A stretch of 64,000 nt of DNA from contig JASEGR010000003.1 of the NCBI GenBank assembly GCA_030017955.1, positions 6,508 through 70,507 on the forward strand, written 5' to 3'. The position numbers and the translations under genes are program-made. Every line of letters starts with the position of its first letter. Within the stretch, counting starts at the first letter, position 1. This document shows positions 23,688 to 42,654 of this stretch, in pieces. The DNA is from Candidatus Eiseniibacteriota bacterium. GTDB taxonomy: Bacteria > Eisenbacteria > RBG-16-71-46 > JASEGR01. A model generated the notes under the pieces. The model was not told the origin of the DNA and did not search any database. It saw nothing but the letters and a program-made list of their open reading frames with translations.

Positions 23688-24701
23688 TTGAAGCTTATTC
23701 ACGACATATGGAAGAGGGCCAGGGAGAAGCACGCGAGGATTGCTCTTCCTGAGTCGGAGGACGAAAGGACGCTCAGCGCCATCAGCGAAGTCAGAGAGAG
23801 GGACCTCGCTGAAATCGTGCTAGTTGGCGACGGGAAGAAAATTGCAGGAAGAGTGGCTCAGGCAGGTATCGACCCAGCGTCTATTGAGATTATCGATCTT
23901 TCTTCGGAAGAATCGTACGAGAAATACCTGAAGCTAATGTTGGACCACGGCGCCCGTGGGAGAATTTGGGAGAAAGAAGTTCCCGAGCTCGCAAGGAATC
24001 CTCTTTTTGTTTCTGCACTCCTCTTGGACACGTTCCAAGTGGACGGCGTCGTGGCAGGGGTGAATACAAAATCATCAGATGTCATTCGTGCAGGTTTGAA
24101 ACTTATTGGTACTAAAGAACCTAACGGCCTAGTTTCAAGTTTCATGTTAATGATCTTGCCTGAGGGAGGACAAAACCCGGAGAGGGTGCTCCTGTTTTCG
24201 GATTGTGCCGTTGTTCCCGAGCCGACTCCGGAGGGACTTGCAACCATAGCCTTCTCATCTGCCCTGAGTTTCAGAGCAGTAGTTGGTGAAGAGCCCAGGG
24301 TTGCAATGCTTTCTTTTTCGACAAAGGGCAGCGCGTCTCATCCGCGAACGGATAAGGTGAGGGAAGCAACAGCCATCGCAAGGGACCGTCATCCGGACCT
24401 CGCCATAGACGGCGAGTTTCAGGCAGATGCTGCGCTCGTCCCGTCTGTGTGCAGGACGAAGGCCCCCGGCAGTGTTCTGAAGGGCGATGCCAACGTCTTG
24501 GTCTTCCCTGATCTTGACAGTGGAAACATAGCTTATAAGCTTGTGGAAAGACTTGCAGGTGCAAGGGCCTATGGCCCAATACTTCAAGGTCTCAAGAGGC
24601 CTCTGAATGACCTTTCACGCGGTGCAGATTCCGACGCAATAGTCAACGTGATAGCAATAACTGCTCTTCAGAAGGAGATAGTCAGAAGTGCCGACCTATG
24701 A
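23688..24701 (+). CDS. pta: Phosphate acetyl/butyryl-transferase (Pta family)
   Basis: 337 aa. The N-terminus [14 protein letters not shown] and the C-terminal ...[25 protein letters not shown] are Pta/PTA_PTB family-type segments. Confidence 0.7.
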
Positions 24702-24951
24702 GTACGAATGCCCCCGGTGCGGGCGCATGTTTGAATTGTTTACGTCCATGCTTGATGAGAAGGAAAAGCGATGTCCAAAATGCAGGGGAATCGGGAAGAA
24801 GCTTCCTGGGTCGGGAGCGGGGTTTATATTCAAGGGCAGCGGATTCTACTCGACAGACTATAGAAGCGAGAAATATCACAAGGAGAAAGAAAAGGAAAAG
24901 GGACCGTTGAAGGAGACGAAATCAGAAAAGAAAAAGAAATTAGACAAGTAG
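24688..24951 (+). CDS. FmdB-family zinc-ribbon protein
   Basis: GTG start. [12 protein letters not shown]...RCPKCRG carries the CxxC-N19-CxxC FmdB motif. The C-terminus is a KEKEK low-complexity tail. Confidence 0.75.
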
Positions 24952-26333
24952 AGAATAGCCTGAGGTCGGCCCTTGAGCCGTCAGCCGTTCTTTCGTCTCG
25001 GGAGGAAAGGATCTGCTATTCGTTTGATGCAACGACACTGTCCCGCCTGCCCGACCTCGTAGCACTTCCTTCCACAACTGAAGATGTACAGGCAATTCTG
25101 AGGATTTGCCGGAAGTACAGAGTCCCAGTCACTCCCAGAGGGGCCGGAACCGGCATGAGCGGAGGTTCCGTGCCAATCGAGGGCGGCGTTGTGGTCTCGA
25201 TGGAAAGGATGAACAGCATTCTCTCGCTTTGTCCAGAGGAAAACAAGGTGACCGTCGGACCTGGACTGATAAACGGAGAACTGCAAAAAGTGCTGATGGA
25301 GCGGGGACATTTCTTCCCGCCAGACCCGTCGAGCATGGATTTCTCAAGCATCGGGGGAAATGTTGCACTCAACGCAAGCGGCCCGAGGTGCTTCAAGTAC
25401 GGCGCGACCAAACGCTACGTCGAGGCCTTCGAGTTCGTCACGATCGAGGGTGACGTCCTGGAGGTCGATGCGCGAAATCCCTTACCGGGATTGGGAGATA
25501 TGCTGTCGATTCTTGTGGGGAGCGAGGGCACGCTGGGAGTCCTTACCCGGCTTGATCTCAGGACGGTGCGCCTCCCCGAGATGACAACGTGTTTTCTGGC
25601 AAATTTCAAGGACTTCTCGCATGCAGGAGGAACGGTATCGGTGTTTCTTTCTCAGAAAGTGATCCCATCGGTCATCGAAATAATCGACGGGAATACCGTA
25701 AGATGCGTGGAGGAGTTCGCAAGGACAGGTCTGGCATCCGGCGATGGGACTTTGATGCTGGTTGAGGTTGACGGCCCGGAAGATGAGGTCAGAAGTGGAA
25801 GTTCTGCAGTCGAAGAGATTCTCCGGTCTTCGGCCACGTATGTCAGGAGGGCAGAGGAAAAGGGAGAGAGGGATAAGTTGTGGAAACTCAGGAAGTCGAT
25901 TTCTCCCTCACTTGCGAGGATCGGCCCGACCAAAATAAACGAGGATGTGTGTGTGCCGAGAACGAAAATTCCGGAGCTCGCCAGCGCAGTCGATAAAATG
26001 ATAAAGAAGTATGGATTGAAGATCTTTCTTTTCGGTCACGCCGGAGACGGGAACATTCACGTTAATATAATGACTGACAGGAGAAACCTTGATGAAATGA
26101 AGCGTGTAGAAGAGGCAGTGCGGGTTTTGTTTGACACCACGCTGTCCCTTGGAGGGACTCTCTCCGGGGAACATGGCATAGGTCTTACGAAGAAGGAATT
26201 TCTCAAGGACGAGGTTGGGGAATATGGTATGATGGCCTTCAGGAAAGTGAAAGACGCATTCGACCCGGCGGGAATGCTCAATCCAGGAAAGCTCCTTGAC
26301 TCAACCCGATTTGACAGGGGTTGCCACGTCTGA
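24921..26333 (+). CDS. FAD-binding oxidase (GlcD / D-lactate dehydrogenase family); start codon non-canonical (ATC 24921, ATT 24939 or CTG 24960); first ATG only at 25155
   Basis: The FAD-binding PCMH domain (PDLVALPSTTEDVQAILRICRKYRVPVTPRGAGTGMSGG) is encoded upstream of the ORF-track ATG at 25155. The frame is open from 24864 and contains no ATG/GTG/TTG before 25155. AAGGAG lies 5 nt before the ATC at 24921. Confidence 0.6.
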   Translation: MRKEKEIRQVENSLRSALEPSAVLSSREERICYSFDATTLSRLPDLVALPSTTEDVQAILRICRKYRVPVTPRGAGTGMSGGSVPIEGGVVVSMERMNSILSLCPEENKVTVGPGLINGELQKVLMERGHFFPPDPSSMDFSSIGGNVALNASGPRCFKYGATKRYVEAFEFVTIEGDVLEVDARNPLPGLGDMLSILVGSEGTLGVLTRLDLRTVRLPEMTTCFLANFKDFSHAGGTVSVFLSQKVIPSVIEIIDGNTVRCVEEFARTGLASGDGTLMLVEVDGPEDEVRSGSSAVEEILRSSATYVRRAEEKGERDKLWKLRKSISPSLARIGPTKINEDVCVPRTKIPELASAVDKMIKKYGLKIFLFGHAGDGNIHVNIMTDRRNLDEMKRVEEAVRVLFDTTLSLGGTLSGEHGIGLTKKEFLKDEVGEYGMMAFRKVKDAFDPAGMLNPGKLLDSTRFDRGCHV

Positions 26334-26367
26334 TAGTCATCGTGATGCGCCGGAGACTGCATGATCC

Positions 26368-31324: not shown

Positions 31325-31738
31325 ATGAAGAGAGGCAGAATACTTGTGGTGGACGACGAGGAGGACGTTCTAACAACACTGAGGCACGTTTTTGAGCTGA
31401 ACGGGTTCGATGTGCTGCTTGCAAGAAACGGAGCAGAGACTCTCGACATTGCCAGAAGGGAATCGCCGGATCTGATAGTCCTCGATGTGATGCTTCCGGG
31501 TCAAAATGGTTATGAGATCTCGAGGATTCTCAAGGAGGAGATTGAAAAAGGCAGTATCCGCCGCGACATGAAAATCGTCATCCTCACCGCCAGGAAACTG
31601 GATTCCAGCGAAAGGGAAGAGTTCATATCCACCTGGGCAAAGGCCGACGGGTACCTCTACAAGCCGTTCAAGATGGAGGAACTCATCGAGACTGTTGAAA
31701 CGCTTCTGGGCGTGAAGCCGGCCCACGCGAGAACTTAA
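31325..31738 (+). CDS. Stand-alone response regulator receiver protein (CheY-like)
   Basis: RILVVDDEEDVLTTL...DLIVLDVMLPGQNGYE...YLYKPF contains the conserved Asp pocket and the K(P)F motif. It has no output domain. Confidence 0.8.
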   Translation: MKRGRILVVDDEEDVLTTLRHVFELNGFDVLLARNGAETLDIARRESPDLIVLDVMLPGQNGYEISRILKEEIEKGSIRRDMKIVILTARKLDSSEREEFISTWAKADGYLYKPFKMEELIETVETLLGVKPAHART

Positions 31739-33465
31739 GGAGCCCGGGAGTATTGAAGAGGGTCAATATCAGGAAAGAGGTTGTCTCTTTCTTCGACGGA
31801 TGACAGGAAAGTGATTTCTTCCACGGAGAGCCTCTCCCCGTGTTTCAGTTTCTCCAGAAGTCTTATTAGACTTGTGAAGTCTTCGTAGTGCCTCTCAACT
31901 CTTCCTTCGGCGTAGTCTCTTGCACTCCAGGTCGAGATAAGAAACTGCCAGTCGGATGATTCCAGGAGAAGAAGTTCTCTTATTGCCTGTTTGAGAACCC
32001 TGTAGAACTCGCTTCGATCCGCCTGCCTGGCTTCCGCCGAGATTGAATTCATCGATAGTTCCGCCTCATGTATAAGCTTCCATGTCCATTCTGTCCAACT
32101 GTTCAGCCAGACATAATGAAACCCGCCTTCGCCCCACGATCCTTCCGGGAGAGAGACAACGGTCCGGGGAGGAAATTTCTCCAGATACCTGCGAGGGCTG
32201 AGCGCCTCGATCATGTCATCCTCATCGATTATTCTCAGCACAGTCTCAAACCACTGAACTCCTTCGAACCACCAATGGCCAAGAAGTTCGGTGTCATAGG
32301 GAGCACAGAGCATTCCTGGCGTTCCGAATCTCTTGTGGTGTCCGATCAGAGCTTCTTTCACAAGCGAAACGAAGTGCATAGCATTCTCAGGGATTCTTCC
32401 GAATGCATTCTCCGGCACGTAGGTTTCCTTTCTCGCAAGGTCACTCTTTGAGGCAGTCACCCTCCAGTACCGGATTCCTCCCGGAAAATGCTTCTTGTGA
32501 AACTCAAGATAGTTGCCGTCTCCCGGGTAGCCGCGCTCGCCGCTCCACACCTGCACTGCCGTTCTGGGGTCCCTGGTGAAAAACGAGATTGGCTCTCTCA
32601 GGTGAGGTTCAGATGGTGAAGAAACAAGGTAGGGGACAAGATGTGACCTCTCCTGAACAGGCTTCTCAACCATCTCCAGAATAGATCTTTCCCACATCTC
32701 CTTGAGCGCCTTGAACCTGTCAAGATAGACTCCAATCGCCTTCCCGCCTTTCAACATGTGGGAATCAACGAAGAAAAACTTGATGTGAGCCTCGCCCAGA
32801 AATTCTTCTACACCTCTTCTCTCAAAGGAAAGTTTGTCCGAAACCGGGGACGTCCAGTGGTAGCGGGGCCTGTAGGCACACTCTGGCAGCCAGATGCCTT
32901 TCGGTTCCTCACCGAAGTGTCTCATGTAGGAACTCTTTCCGACGAGGATCTGCGCCTTGACTGCCTCATCCGTGCCGAGAAGAGGGAGATAGCCGTGAGT
33001 CGCCGCCGAAGTAAGAATTTCGACGCTTCCCTCATCGCGGAGTCTGCGGAAACCTCCGATTATGTCTCCCGAATAACGTTCCCTGAAGCTCCTAAGGACA
33101 TTTTCGTAGAACCGCTCCCAAAAAGCCGTGAGCGCGTTGAACTCTGTCTTCCCCGAACCAGAAAAGTCCTTCCTGTCATTTCTCACTGCCTCCAGTCTGT
33201 TTTCGAGATATGCCGTGAACTCCTCTTTGAAGGCCTGACTTGAGAGCTGCTCGCAAAGGACTGGTGTCAAGCCGACTGCGCAGGAGGGATTCCCGCCCCT
33301 CTCGAGAATCGAGGTCAAGACATTGAGAAGAGGAATGTAAGATTCGGCGGATGCCTCATTCAGCCAGTCAGTGCCGTGAGGCCACCTGCCGTGCGACATA
33401 ACATACGGAATGTGTGAATGGAGGACGAAAGAGAAGTAGCCGAGAGGGTTCTTAGTTTTCAGAAT
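31735..33465 (-). CDS. Glycoside hydrolase family 57 1,4-alpha-glucan branching enzyme; non-canonical start (ATT 33465..33463 or CTG 33462..33460), first ATG at 33399
   Basis: The minus-strand frame is open from the TAA at 33515..33513. The GH57 N-terminal signature KNPLGYFSFVLHSHIPYV is encoded upstream of the first ATG (MSHGRWPHGTDWLNEASAESYIPLL...). There is no ATG/GTG/TTG in that stretch, and a GAAGGA Shine-Dalgarno lies 6 nt before the ATT. Confidence 0.75.
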   Translation of the reverse strand: MLKTKNPLGYFSFVLHSHIPYVMSHGRWPHGTDWLNEASAESYIPLLNVLTSILERGGNPSCAVGLTPVLCEQLSSQAFKEEFTAYLENRLEAVRNDRKDFSGSGKTEFNALTAFWERFYENVLRSFRERYSGDIIGGFRRLRDEGSVEILTSAATHGYLPLLGTDEAVKAQILVGKSSYMRHFGEEPKGIWLPECAYRPRYHWTSPVSDKLSFERRGVEEFLGEAHIKFFFVDSHMLKGGKAIGVYLDRFKALKEMWERSILEMVEKPVQERSHLVPYLVSSPSEPHLREPISFFTRDPRTAVQVWSGERGYPGDGNYLEFHKKHFPGGIRYWRVTASKSDLARKETYVPENAFGRIPENAMHFVSLVKEALIGHHKRFGTPGMLCAPYDTELLGHWWFEGVQWFETVLRIIDEDDMIEALSPRRYLEKFPPRTVVSLPEGSWGEGGFHYVWLNSWTEWTWKLIHEAELSMNSISAEARQADRSEFYRVLKQAIRELLLLESSDWQFLISTWSARDYAEGRVERHYEDFTSLIRLLEKLKHGERLSVEEITFLSSVEERDNLFPDIDPLQYSRAP

Positions 33466-33761
33466 CCGATGTCCTTCTTCGAGGGTTCGCCTGGGAAAAT
33501 CTTTATCGGCCCGTACTGTTCCTCAAACTTCTTTATGTTCGTGTCCAGGGCATTGAGAAGGGATTTCGCATGCTGGGGGGTCATCACGATTCTGGCGTAA
33601 ACCCTGCTCTTCGGAACGCCGGGCATGAATCTCGCAAAATCGATTATGAATTCGGAAGGCGAGTGCGCTATGAAGGCAATGTTGGAATAGATGCCTTCGG
33701 CCTCTTTCTCGCCAAGCTCCACGCTTATCTGCGGCTGCGGAATCGGCTGCTGTTTCTCCAT
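33459..33761 (-). CDS. DUF3467-family small protein
   Basis: 100 aa. The motif GIYSNIAFIAHSPSEFIIDFARF matches the DUF3467 G-x-Y-x-N...H...EF..DF signature. Its stop overlaps the putative ATT/CTG start of the downstream GH57 gene (ATTCTGA). Confidence 0.55.
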   Translation of the reverse strand: MEKQQPIPQPQISVELGEKEAEGIYSNIAFIAHSPSEFIIDFARFMPGVPKSRVYARIVMTPQHAKSLLNALDTNIKKFEEQYGPIKIFPGEPSKKDIGF

Positions 33762-41050: not shown

Positions 41051-41414
41051 GTTGAGGCCCTGCGACCTCCTATTCCATGGGCTAGTGCACCGTAACATAA
41101 GTAAGTTGACATTCACATTGCCGCTGAACGGTGCACTGCTGGGGGTTTTAGGGGGTCGAGCCCGACCCCCTAAGGGGTTACAGTTGCGAAAGTTGCCGGT
41201 GGCAAGTTTCGAAACGTCATAGGGGCGATAGCCCCTGTGAAAGTGCTGGGTCACCCCATAATAAGTCCGTGAGTTTATGTGACACAGCACTAGGAGGCCC
41301 GAGCAGCAGGCAATCTCCAGAGTGAGCTACCCGGAAGCCCAGCTCCAGGAAGAATCAGGAGGCTGGGCTCAATCAGAAAAGGAGTAGGAGTAGACTTCAC
41401 CTCAATAAGAGGAG

Positions 41415-42470
41415 ATGGCGGTGACCAAAGAGGAACTGAGCCGGCTGACGCAGGAAGTCTCCTGCGCAGGCTGAGCGGCAAAACTGGGTCCGGCGGACCT
41501 TTCGAAAGTCCTTAAGACAGTCCCAAAGCAGAAGGACAAGCGGCTCCTGGTCGGGCTTCACACTTTGGATGATGCCGGCGTCTACAAAATCGGGAAAGAC
41601 CTGGCTATTGTCCAAACAGTCGATTTCTTTCCGCCGGTCGTGGACGATCCGTATGACTTTGGGATGATAGCTGCGGCGAACGCCCTCAGTGATGTGTACG
41701 CCATGGGAGGAACTCCGCTCACTGCAATGAGCATAGTCTGCTTTCCGAGCGAAAGAAAGAATATCGGAGTCCTCGCAAGAATTCTGAAGGGCGGGACCGA
41801 CAAACTCAGGGAAGCAGGCACAGTGCTCGTAGGCGGTCATTCTGTGAAGGACAATGAGCTCAAATTCGGTTTTTCCGTCACAGGGACAGTCAATCCGAGG
41901 AAAATCGTGTCCAATGCCGGAGCCAAGCCGGGAGACGCTTTGATACTCACAAAGCCTCTCGGCACCGGTGTTCTCACAACTGCGCTCAAAATGGGAATCT
42001 TGTCGGAAAATGGCAGAAGAACGGTGACCCGTGTCATGTCGTCGCTCAATTCCACTGCTTCGAGATTGATGTGTAAGTTCGGCGCTGATTCCTGTACGGA
42101 CATCACGGGTTTCGGTCTCGGAGGCCATGCCTGGGAGATGGCACGGGCAAGCAAAGTGACTCTTAGATTCTATTCGGCAAAAATCCCGGTTCTTCCAGGA
42201 GTCCGCGAGCTTGTTGAGAAAAAGTCCGTTCCCGGCGGGACAATATCCAACAAGGAATTTCTTAAAAGAGACGTATTGATCCACAGCTCTGCGGCGGGGC
42301 TATCCCCTCTGATATTCTTTGACCCGCAAACCTCCGGCGGCCTCCTGATCAGCATCAGTCAGAAGCGGACAGAAGCTCTATTGAAAGAACTTCGAAAGAG
42401 CGGGATAAGGGACGCGGCGCTTGTCGGGGAAGTGGTGAGAAGAAAGAAGGCGCTGGTTGAGGTTTTCTAG
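41415..42470 (+). CDS. selD: Selenide, water dikinase (selenophosphate synthetase) SelD - selenoprotein with in-frame TGA (Sec) at 41472-41474
   Basis: The ATG at 41415 gives MAVTKEELSRLTQEVSCAG-U-AAKLGPADLSKVLKTV...LDDAGVYKIG, which aligns with E. coli SelD [24 protein letters not shown]...RDDAAVYDLG. The TGA falls exactly at catalytic Cys17 and the conserved Lys follows 3 residues later. The hairpin GGUCC-GGC-GGACC starts 12 nt after the UGA, which is SECIS-like. The ORF-track version (TTG 41565) lacks the essential N-terminal motif. Confidence 0.8.
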
Positions 42471-42654
42471 CAGCGAGTGCGTGGAAGGGGGTTCCGGAAT
42501 AGAGGTTTTCTCAGTGTCTTCTGCGATTGGCCGGGAGCGAATGGGCTCTGGTGGGCCCCGAGGACTTCAAATCCTTAAGTCGGGCGCCAATACCGTCCGG
42601 GGTGGGTTCGATTCCCACGCGTTCCCGCCATCTCGTTCGTGGTCACAGCAAGGC

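What the first reader, a model, noticed from the sequence alone, without database searches (positions are those of the whole stretch)
24861..25157. GlcD-family FAD oxidase also lacks a canonical start; true start overlaps the FmdB gene tail
The conserved FAD-binding N-terminal domain (…LVALPSTTEDVQAILRICRKYRVPVTPRGAGTGMSGG) is encoded upstream of the only ATG in the frame, at 25155. The frame is open back to the TAG at 24861-24863. It contains no ATG/GTG/TTG, only ATA, ATC (24921), ATT (24939) and CTG (24960). The ATC at 24921 is preceded by a perfect AAGGAG with a 5-nt spacer. Any of these starts makes the oxidase gene overlap the last 0-30 nt of the FmdB zinc-ribbon gene in a different frame. 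This is the second conserved enzyme in 10 kb with the same property (see the GH57 case). That argues for a genuine preference for non-ATG/GTG/TTG initiation, or for overlapped coupling, in this organism rather than a one-off error.
Basis: seen in the sequence. Interest (0 to 1): 0.5.

Follow-up and report, generated by a model that had tools for sequence, protein, structure and literature searches.

The report
Oxidase gene with non-canonical start codon
A conserved FAD-dependent oxidase gene in an uncultured Eisenbacteria genome has no ATG, GTG or TTG start codon, and a related genome from another sample shares this, so translation most likely begins at a rare "near-cognate" codon (ATC or ATT) inside the tail of the upstream zinc-ribbon gene; this is a real but already known kind of exception.

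Summary
The GlcD-family frame is open from TAG 24861-63 and has no ATG/GTG/TTG before ATG 25155. That ATG lies 35 residues inside the Pfam FAD_binding_4 domain.

- **Not an error.** An independent ENA contig from a relative (L095, 86% nucleotide identity, no indel over 821 nt) has the same stop bound and the same first ATG. It keeps AAGGAG, ATC 24921, ATT 24939 and CTG 24960.
- **The upstream region is translated.** Substitutions between the two genomes upstream of the ATG fit this frame (15 synonymous/11 non-synonymous, against 1/24 and 6/19 in the other frames).
- **Where the start should be.** Of 80 distant GlcD loci, 77 have a canonical start at the equivalent of residues 18-30 (mode 24). 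ATC is residue 20 and ATT is residue 26.
- **Best reading.** Initiation at a near-cognate codon in the FmdB tail: ATC with SD AAGGAG 5 nt upstream, or else ATT. It is probably coupled to FmdB translation.
- **Second case.** The GH57 gene is also real (ATT/CTG; CTG overlaps the upstream gene's TGA stop as CTGA).
- **No organism-wide preference shown.** Only 2 of 56 genes in the window behave this way, and more distant relatives have canonical starts.

NCBI already annotates both genes with CTG starts, and its start for this gene is too far downstream. I rate this a new member of a known kind, of modest interest.

The parts
24688..24951 (+). FmdB-family zinc-ribbon gene (GTG start, TAG stop 24949-51), 87 aa with a Lys/Glu-rich tail
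   Evidence: TIGR02605 scores 56.5 bits (cut-off 31.3) and PF09723 matches. It is identical to NCBI MDI6807513.1. Two ENA relatives have the same 87-aa length and the same tail.
24864..26333 (+). Open frame of the GlcD-family FAD-linked oxidase (489 codons from the upstream TAG to the stop)
   Evidence: PF01565 matches residues 63-201 and PF02913 residues 238-477. TIGR00387 scores 406 bits, below its equivalog cut-off of 568. The best solved homologue is glycolate oxidase 9qgz_A.
24910..24915 (+). Shine-Dalgarno-like AAGGAG, 5 nt upstream of ATC 24921
   Evidence: It is conserved in L095, where two spacer bases change but the spacer length is kept. The spacing matches the strong-SD genes of this window (AGGAG/AGGAGG at 4-8 nt).
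24921..24923 (+). ATC, the favoured near-cognate start candidate (would give a 470-aa protein, [14 protein letters not shown]...)
   Evidence: It is conserved in L095. It falls in the same alignment column as the annotated GTG start of the complete-genome relative L089. It corresponds to residue 20, within the family start range of 18-30.
24939..24941 (+). ATT, the second near-cognate start candidate (464 aa), 10 nt before the FmdB stop
   Evidence: It is conserved in L095. An in-frame ATT overlaps the FmdB TAG stop ('ATTAG') in 6 of the 7 distant relatives compared. L091, fetched later, repeats L086; L089 has CTT there and L090 has a non-overlapping ATG. It corresponds to residue 26 against a family mode of 24.
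24960..24962 (+). CTG, the third candidate, 8 nt after the FmdB stop
   Evidence: It is conserved in L095. It would trim the N-terminal helix seen in homologues.
25047..25049 (+). CTG used as the start in the NCBI annotation (MDI6807514.1, 428 aa); too far downstream
   Evidence: P0001 begins MPDLVALPS. This start removes the invariant E47, C51, Y52, F54, D55, A56, T57 block.
25155..25157 (+). First canonical start codon (ATG) in the frame, 35 residues inside the FAD-binding domain
   Evidence: The gene caller on L095 started at the equivalent ATG.
24960..25154 (+). N-terminal coding region upstream of the first ATG, under purifying selection in the oxidase frame
   Evidence: Window against L095: 15 synonymous/11 non-synonymous codon changes in this frame, against 1/24 and 6/19 in the other two. 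Differences by codon position are 5:7:16.
31735..33465 (-). GH57 (branching-enzyme-like) gene, the second gene without a canonical start. Candidates are ATT 33465-63 and CTG 33462-60; the first ATG is at 33399.
   Evidence: PF03065 model position 1 aligns 11 residues upstream of the ATG. Sequence read. NCBI MDI6807521.1 starts at the CTG. Homologues start 3-6 residues before the conserved Gly.
33459..33761 (-). DUF3467 gene whose TGA stop (33461-59) overlaps the CTG of the GH57 gene (CTGA)
   Evidence: PF11950 matches; sequence.

Best explanation
The oxidase is a functional GlcD-family FAD-linked oxidase. Its translation starts at a near-cognate codon decoded by initiator tRNA, inside or just after the Lys/Glu-rich tail of the upstream FmdB gene.

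Most likely start: AUC 24921, served by the AAGGAG Shine-Dalgarno 5 nt upstream (my estimate about 0.45). Next: AUU 24939, 10 nt before the FmdB stop (about 0.3). Then: CUG 24960 (about 0.1).

The two genes overlap or abut, and they are adjacent in every relative examined. Ribosomes translating or terminating FmdB probably feed initiation of the oxidase (translational coupling or re-initiation). That would compensate for a weak start codon and set a low, fixed oxidase:FmdB ratio.

Shown: there is no canonical start; the region upstream of the ATG is translated; the arrangement is conserved in a related genome.

Inferred: which codon is used, and the coupling.
For: (1) There is no ATG/GTG/TTG between TAG 24861 and ATG 25155. 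The ATG lies 35 aa inside FAD_binding_4.

(2) L095 is an independent ENA contig at 86.4% identity with zero indels over 821 nt. It has the same stop bound and the same first ATG, and it keeps AAGGAG, ATC, ATT and CTG.

(3) Substitutions in 24960-25154 are codon-periodic in the oxidase frame: 15 syn/11 nonsyn against 1/24 and 6/19. Upstream of ATC the same frame shows 2 syn/8 nonsyn.

(4) 77 of 80 distant GlcD loci have a canonical start at the equivalent of residues 18-30, with the ATG mode at 24. ATC is residue 20 and ATT is residue 26. Solved homologues 9qgz_A and 7qh2_C have 38-39 residues before the point that the ATC-start protein reaches at residue 39-43.

(5) Many genes in this window use strong AGGAG/AGGAGG motifs at 4-8 nt.

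(6) ATC shares an alignment column with the GTG start of relative L089.

(7) FmdB and the oxidase are adjacent in all 11 related loci. They overlap by the called or candidate starts in all of these except L090, which has a non-overlapping ATG.

(8) 11 co-directional junctions in the window are 4-nt NTGA overlaps, so tight coupling architecture is the norm here.

(9) The other 54 genes are intact, which rules out a generally error-rich assembly.

(10) In E. coli, AUA/AUC/AUU/CUG initiate at about 1-2% of AUG, and AUU is the native start of infC and pcnB (bioRxiv 10.1101/063800).
Against: - There is no direct evidence (peptide, ribosome profiling) for any start site.
- AAGGAG is frequent in the window (77 copies, 62 expected). 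It arises naturally from Lys-Glu codons in the FmdB tail.
- The 29-nt block 24919-24947 with no substitutions is the longest identical run, but a run that long appears somewhere in 82% of permutations.
- More distant relatives all keep some in-frame canonical codon: GTG at -2, GTG at -5, TTG at -16, GTG at -24, or an ATG. So near-cognate use is not demonstrably ancestral.
- No significant RNA structure suggests unfolding-type coupling (z = -0.6).
Confidence: 0.8

Rival explanations
1. Sequencing or assembly artefact: an indel in the A-rich tract (24924-24939) or a base error hides a canonical start.
For: The region has A4/A5/A3 homopolymers. The MAG locus is known from a single contig. No independent assembly of exactly this genome was found.
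Against: L095, from a different ENA assembly, aligns without a single indel and has the same start-less frame. Two ENA FmdB relatives have the same 87-aa length and tail. A +/-1 indel cannot bring a canonical start into frame. Removing a base puts the upstream part into a frame that is closed by TGA 24908-10 and has no start after it. Adding a base would fuse FmdB to the oxidase. All other genes are intact.
Confidence: 0.02
2. The gene makes an N-terminally shortened protein, starting at CTG 25047 (as NCBI annotates) or at ATG 25155; or it is a decaying pseudogene.
For: NCBI MDI6807514.1 starts at CTG 25047. The gene caller on L095 used the ATG.
Against: Residues upstream of both sites are conserved with homologues: invariant E47, C51, Y52, F54, D55, A56, T57, and the PRGAGTG motif lies before the ATG. 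Region 24960-25154 evolves as coding sequence in this frame. The ATG start would delete 35 residues of the FAD-binding domain. The frame is intact over 489 codons in the window, and over all 185 codons that L095 covers before its contig ends.
Confidence: 0.04
3. Programmed -1 ribosomal frameshifting in the A-rich tract (G AAA AAG, 24930-36) fuses FmdB to the oxidase, so no separate start is needed.
For: The oxidase frame is -1 relative to FmdB. The overlap holds A AAG-type slippery codons, and these are conserved in L095.
Against: The heptamer is imperfect. No stimulatory structure is predicted. In the distant relatives the oxidase frame is +1 relative to FmdB, with no A-tract. None of the 120 best homologues is of fusion length; all are 428-488 aa.
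Confidence: 0.03
4. Re-initiation at AUU 24939 (or CUG 24960) by ribosomes terminating at the FmdB stop 24949-51, without a Shine-Dalgarno, rather than SD-directed initiation at AUC.
For: An in-frame ATT overlaps the FmdB stop ('ATTAG') in 6 of the 7 distant relatives compared (L001, L002, L083, L084, L086, L087). The window keeps ATTAG. ATT sits at the family-typical position (residue 26 against a mode of 24). It lies 10 nt from the stop, within the distances discussed for re-initiation (PMC6728339, PMC12548453). The GH57 gene has ATT-CTG directly on the upstream stop.
Against: ATT in the relatives could be kept by the FmdB C-terminal Asp/Asn codon plus TAG. L085 has ACT there with a GTG two codons upstream, and L089 has CTT. 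No SD lies within range of ATT. In the window the TAG of ATTAG is not in the FmdB frame.
Confidence: 0.35

Closest known systems
Native near-cognate (AUU) start codons of E. coli infC and pcnB
   Same: An essential or conserved protein-coding gene has no AUG/GUG/UUG. It starts at an AUN-type near-cognate codon kept in relatives. Such a start is weak (about 1-2% of AUG in E. coli reporters; bioRxiv 10.1101/063800).
   Different: The infC AUU is tied to IF3 autoregulation (my own knowledge). No such logic is evident for an FAD oxidase. Here the start lies inside the tail of an upstream gene, conservation is shown only in one close relative (L095), and the codon used is not determined.
Translational coupling of overlapping gene pairs by termination-reinitiation (ATGA/TGATG pairs; Huber et al. 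2019, PMC6728339; review PMC12548453)
   Same: A co-directional pair with stop and start overlapping or within a few nucleotides, and an SD inside the upstream gene. The window is rich in 4-nt NTGA overlaps. The GH57 gene has the same geometry with C in place of A/G/T (CTGA).
   Different: Described pairs use canonical start codons. The oxidase start would be near-cognate, and the overlap (31 or 13 nt, or an 8-nt gap) is not the classical -4/-1 class. Dependence on upstream translation is untested.
GlcD / D-lactate dehydrogenase family FAD-linked oxidases (PF01565 + PF02913; PDB 9qgz, 7qh2)
   Same: Both domains are full length, with 44-51% identity to many metagenomic 'glycolate oxidase' proteins and a strong match to solved glycolate oxidase and LctD.
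   Different: It scores below the TIGR00387 and PRK11230 equivalog cut-offs. No GlcE/GlcF partner genes are adjacent. The substrate is unknown.

Membership tests
GlcD-family FAD-linked oxidase | Complete FAD_binding_4 (PF01565) domain | tested here: met
   E = 3.2e-41, model positions 1-138 of 139 on residues 63-201 of the open frame. It is complete only if translation starts upstream of ATG 25155.
GlcD-family FAD-linked oxidase | FAD-oxidase_C (PF02913) domain | tested here: met
   E = 1.6e-65, model positions 2-248 of 248.
Glycolate oxidase subunit GlcD proper (TIGR00387 / PRK11230 equivalogs) | Score above the curated equivalog cut-off | tested here: not met
   406 bits against a cut-off of 568, and 320 bits against 897. 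So it is a family member, not a certified GlcD.
FmdB-family zinc ribbon (TIGR02605) | CxxC...CxxC zinc-ribbon domain above the cut-off | tested here: met
   56.5 bits against a cut-off of 31.3, model positions 1-52.
Genes with a native near-cognate start codon (infC/pcnB type) | No in-frame ATG/GTG/TTG upstream of the conserved N-terminus | tested here: met
Genes with a native near-cognate start codon (infC/pcnB type) | The state is conserved in related genomes and is not an error | tested here: met
   L095 shows the same arrangement, with ATC/ATT/CTG conserved and coding-type substitutions upstream of the ATG. More distant relatives have canonical options.
Genes with a native near-cognate start codon (infC/pcnB type) | Protein N-terminus mapped to the near-cognate codon | not testable with these tools
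   This needs N-terminal proteomics or initiation-site ribosome profiling.
Translationally coupled overlapping gene pair (termination-reinitiation) | Co-directional pair with the start within or next to the end of the upstream ORF | tested here: met
   The start candidates lie 31 or 13 nt inside the FmdB ORF, or 8 nt after it. The genes are adjacent in all 11 related loci, overlapping by the called or candidate starts in all but L090.
Translationally coupled overlapping gene pair (termination-reinitiation) | Downstream translation depends on upstream translation | not testable with these tools
   This needs a reporter with a premature stop in FmdB.
Programmed -1 frameshift fusion | Canonical X XXY YYZ slippery site plus a stimulatory structure, conserved in relatives | tested here: not met
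   Only an imperfect G AAA AAG is present. The fold z-score is -0.6. The frame offset differs in distant relatives. No homologue is of fusion length.

The most novel reading that the evidence does not exclude
In this Eisenbacteria lineage, genes that sit directly on the end of an upstream ORF are stably initiated at near-cognate codons (AUC/AUU/CUG): the FmdB-oxidase pair and the DUF3467-GH57 pair. The oxidase case has been kept across at least 14% nucleotide divergence. That would imply that re-initiating or coupled ribosomes in this phylum tolerate near-cognate starts far better than the E. coli paradigm, or that the weak codon is selected as an expression-ratio device. Non-canonical starts would then be systematically under-called or mis-placed in these genomes.
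Probability: 0.2. Interest if true: 0.5.

Novelty: new member of a known kind. Interest (0 to 1): 0.3.

Why it matters
The practical value is for annotation. NCBI's record starts this oxidase 36-42 residues too late (at CTG 25047). Prodigal-type callers start it 77 residues or more too late (at the ATG), or, in relatives, over-extend it into FmdB. Each choice gives a wrong N-terminus for a conserved enzyme.

Biologically, this is a clean example of a near-cognate start supported by comparison with a related genome, in an uncultured phylum. It sits in a translational-coupling context, and a second example lies 7 kb away. If such starts prove enriched at coupled junctions, that would bear on how strictly re-initiating ribosomes check the start codon. 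By itself the case does not change what is known about initiation.

Tried and rejected
- **Genome scan.** I scanned the GTDB genome collection with a GlcD clade alignment. The tool chose patterns that were too generic, so it returned 80 distant GlcD loci and no Eisenbacteria. I reused these as a background set.
- **Metagenome scan.** The RICYSFDATT pattern gave only 5 true relatives and one chance hit (L088).
- **Exact-product look-ups.** I looked up P0001, the 392-aa ATG-start product and FmdB to find an independent assembly of the same genome. None is on record. The useful relative L095 came instead through the FmdB 90% cluster.
- **GH57 relatives.** P0123 and P0124 have no DUF3467 upstream, so they say nothing about the GH57 start codon beyond N-terminal length.
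- **RNA folding.** Folding 24880-25010 gave no structure beyond shuffles.
- **AAGGAG count.** The motif is too common to be decisive.
- **A possible third start-less gene at 41294-42470.** It turned out to be selD with a Sec-TGA.
- **Indel rescue of TTG 24907.** Rejected, because that TTG is in the FmdB frame and the rescue would fuse the two proteins. It is also CTG in L095.
- **Domain scans of ten further genes on their stop-to-stop frames.** No other hidden N-terminal extension was found.
Full report
**What is in the sequence**

- The FmdB-type zinc-ribbon gene runs 24688-24951 (GTG start, TAG stop). It matches TIGR02605 at 56.5 bits and PF09723.
- In a different frame, an ORF is open from just after TAG 24861-63 to the stop at 26331-33.
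- Its first ATG/GTG/TTG is ATG 25155, which is codon 98.
- In-frame near-cognate codons are ATA 24873, ATC 24921, ATT 24939 and CTG 24960. AAGGAG (24910-15) sits 5 nt before ATC.
- Pfam FAD_binding_4 aligns from codon 63 (model positions 1-138 of 139), and FAD-oxidase_C aligns to codons 238-477. The ATG is therefore 35 residues inside the FAD domain.
- NCBIfam places the protein in the GlcD family but below the equivalog cut-offs: TIGR00387 gives 406 bits against 568.

A 97-codon run without start-type codons is not unusual in itself. These codons make up 5.3% of coding codons here, and several longer runs occur inside genes. What matters is where this run lies.

**Origin and existing annotation**

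The window is part of a 74.6-kb contig of a 'Candidatus Eisenbacteria bacterium' MAG.
- NCBI annotates this gene as MDI6807514.1 (428 aa), beginning MPDLVALPS. That is CTG 25047 read as Met.
- This start removes about 36-42 residues that are conserved in homologues, including the invariant E47, C51, Y52, F54, D55, A56, T57 block.
- The nearest database homologues are only about 50% identical.

**Where the family starts**

I compared the open frame with 80 distant GlcD loci, a by-product of the scan.
- 77 have a canonical start at the equivalent of residues 18-30 of the window's open frame. 63 of them have an ATG there, and the mode is residue 24.
- ATC 24921 is residue 20, ATT 24939 is residue 26 and CTG 24960 is residue 33.
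- The solved homologues glycolate oxidase 9qgz_A (464 aa) and LctD 7qh2_C (467 aa) have 38-39 residues before the point that an ATC-start protein (470 aa) reaches at residue 39-43.

The real N-terminus therefore lies in 24921-24962, where only near-cognate codons exist.

**The decisive control: a related genome**

The exact FmdB sequence belongs to a 90% cluster that contains two ENA proteins of the same length and tail. The 821-nt contig of one of them (L095, ERZ27247960) aligns to window 24600-25420 with no indel and 112 substitutions, which is 86.4% identity.
- L095 has the same TAG bound, no ATG/GTG/TTG until the same ATG, and conserved AAGGAG, ATC, ATT and CTG.
- The out-of-frame TTG 24907 is CTG in L095.
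- Between CTG 24960 and the ATG, changes are 15 synonymous/11 non-synonymous in the oxidase frame, against 1/24 and 6/19 in the other frames. Differences by codon position are 5:7:16. This stretch is translated in both genomes.
- Upstream of ATC the oxidase frame shows 2 synonymous/8 non-synonymous changes, which is the pattern expected if that part is not oxidase-coding.
- The longest identical run of the whole alignment is 24919-24947, covering ATC through ATT. For a block chosen in advance, p = 0.014. However, a run this long occurs somewhere in 82% of permutations, so it is only suggestive.

These results exclude a sequencing or assembly error and a recent one-off mutation. A +/-1 indel could not restore a canonical start anyway. 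Removing a base puts the upstream part into a frame closed by TGA 24908-10. Adding a base would fuse FmdB to the oxidase.

**More distant relatives**

Ten further loci were compared: L001, L002, L083-L087 and L089-L091. They keep the synteny secretin, RsmD, CoaD, FmdB, oxidase..., Obg, HEAT, and FmdB is always directly upstream.
- In 6 of the 7 loci compared first, an in-frame ATT overlaps the FmdB TAG stop ('ATTAG') at the family-typical start position. L091, fetched later, repeats L086.
- L085 has ACT there, with a GTG two codons upstream. L087 has that GTG as well as the ATT.
- L089, from a complete genome, has CTT there and starts at a GTG. That GTG falls in the same alignment column as the window's ATC.
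- L090 has a plain ATG with no overlap.
- Several loci also carry an in-frame TTG 16 codons or a GTG 24 codons upstream. Gene callers used these, producing unusually long Lys/Arg-rich N-termini.
- NCBI started the DG_63 orthologue (P0003) at an ATT.

The start codon of this gene is thus evolutionarily fluid in the clade. Only the window's sub-lineage (window and L095) has no canonical option at all.

**Is it an organism-wide habit?**

I went through 56 genes in the window. For 54, a canonical start fits the neighbouring gene and, where checked, the domain boundaries.

The second exception is the GH57 gene on the minus strand.
- The Pfam model starts 11 residues before the first ATG (33399).
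- The candidates are ATT 33465-63 and CTG 33462-60. The CTG overlaps the TGA stop of the upstream DUF3467 gene as CTGA.
- NCBI uses that CTG for MDI6807521.1.
- Homologue N-termini fit this position.

Eleven co-directional junctions in the window are 4-nt NTGA overlaps. CTGA looks like that standard coupling geometry with a near-cognate first base. Two of 56 is more than the 'very rare' rate reported for bacteria (bioRxiv 10.1101/063800). It is still far from a preference.

An apparent third start-less ORF is selD, which has an in-frame Sec-TGA.

**Mechanism**

- Shown: the protein is made from a start in 24921-24962, where no canonical codon exists.
- Inferred: the start is AUC 24921. It has an AAGGAG SD at the 5-nt spacing typical of the strong-SD genes here. 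It is conserved in L095 and is positionally equivalent to the L089 GTG.
- Alternative: AUU 24939, 10 nt before the FmdB stop, used by terminating ribosomes.
- Near-cognates give about 1-2% of AUG activity in E. coli reporters (10.1101/063800). Coupling to FmdB translation is the natural way to raise and fix that output (PMC6728339, PMC12548453).
- No RNA structure stands out.
- A -1 frameshift fusion is unlikely. The slippery site is imperfect, the frame offset differs in distant relatives, and no homologue is of fusion length.

**Verdict**

This is a real, conserved non-canonical start in a GlcD-family oxidase gene that overlaps the FmdB tail. The closest precedent is the near-cognate start of infC and pcnB, here combined with ordinary translational-coupling architecture. 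The public record already flags it, but with a mis-placed CTG. I rate it a new member of a known kind, with modest interest (0.3). Its main value is correcting the annotation and providing a lead for a phylum-wide survey.

Noticed in passing
window 41418-42470 (+), TGA at 41472-41474; tRNA-Sec at 42533-42630: The selD-like gene (AIRS/AIRS_C domains) has an in-frame TGA in the motif ...EVSCAG-U-AAKLGP..., and a tRNA-Sec gene lies about 60 nt downstream. This is a selenoprotein SelD with its own tRNA-Sec next to it. On an ORF list it looks like a gene without a start.
   Followed up: partly
window 33459-33465 (- strand): The GH57 branching-enzyme-like gene has no canonical start. ATT-CTG sits directly on the TGA stop of the upstream DUF3467 gene (ggATTCTGAaa), with AAGGA 6-9 nt upstream. 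NCBI starts it at the CTG.
   Followed up: partly
L051 2977-3010 (Nitrospirae MAG JAJYGS010000082.1): This is the only one of the 80 distant GlcD loci with no canonical start at all before the conserved region (two others merely lack one within residues 18-30). An in-frame ATT at the family-typical position is preceded by GGAGG with a 7-nt spacer. It may be an independent ATT-start GlcD.
   Followed up: no
L091 3001 (Latescibacteria bacterium DG_63, LJNC01000007.1): The deposited annotation of the orthologous oxidase (P0003, MRALQ...) begins at an ATT codon 5 codons downstream of the ATT that overlaps the FmdB stop. Annotators met the same problem in that genome.
   Followed up: partly
window, 11 junctions (e.g. 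3358, 4686, 7717, 11628, 23208, 29202, 30323, 52309, 55200, 56318, 57439): A high density of 4-nt start/stop overlaps (ATGA/GTGA/TTGA) between co-directional genes. Tight translational coupling seems to be the rule in this genome.
   Followed up: partly
window 26334-26367 compared with L001 4465-6378, L002, L089-L091: The six more distant relatives for which called genes were fetched (L001, L002, L089-L091) carry two aconitase-family genes (PF00330 and PF00694) between the oxidase and obg. In the window, obg follows the oxidase directly, so that gene pair is absent or has moved.
   Followed up: no
P0242 (ENA, 659-nt contig), FmdB tail ...KKSEKKMKSDK: A third close relative of FmdB differs in the overlap region. 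The Leu-to-Ser change implies ATT->ATC at the position of 24939-41 in the oxidase frame (inferred from the protein only).
   Followed up: no
window 25047-25049: The NCBI start for the oxidase (CTG, MDI6807514.1) coincides with position 1 of the Pfam domain. It cuts off the conserved N-terminal segment, including the ICYSFDATT motif, and is probably an artefact of profile-guided start picking.
   Followed up: yes
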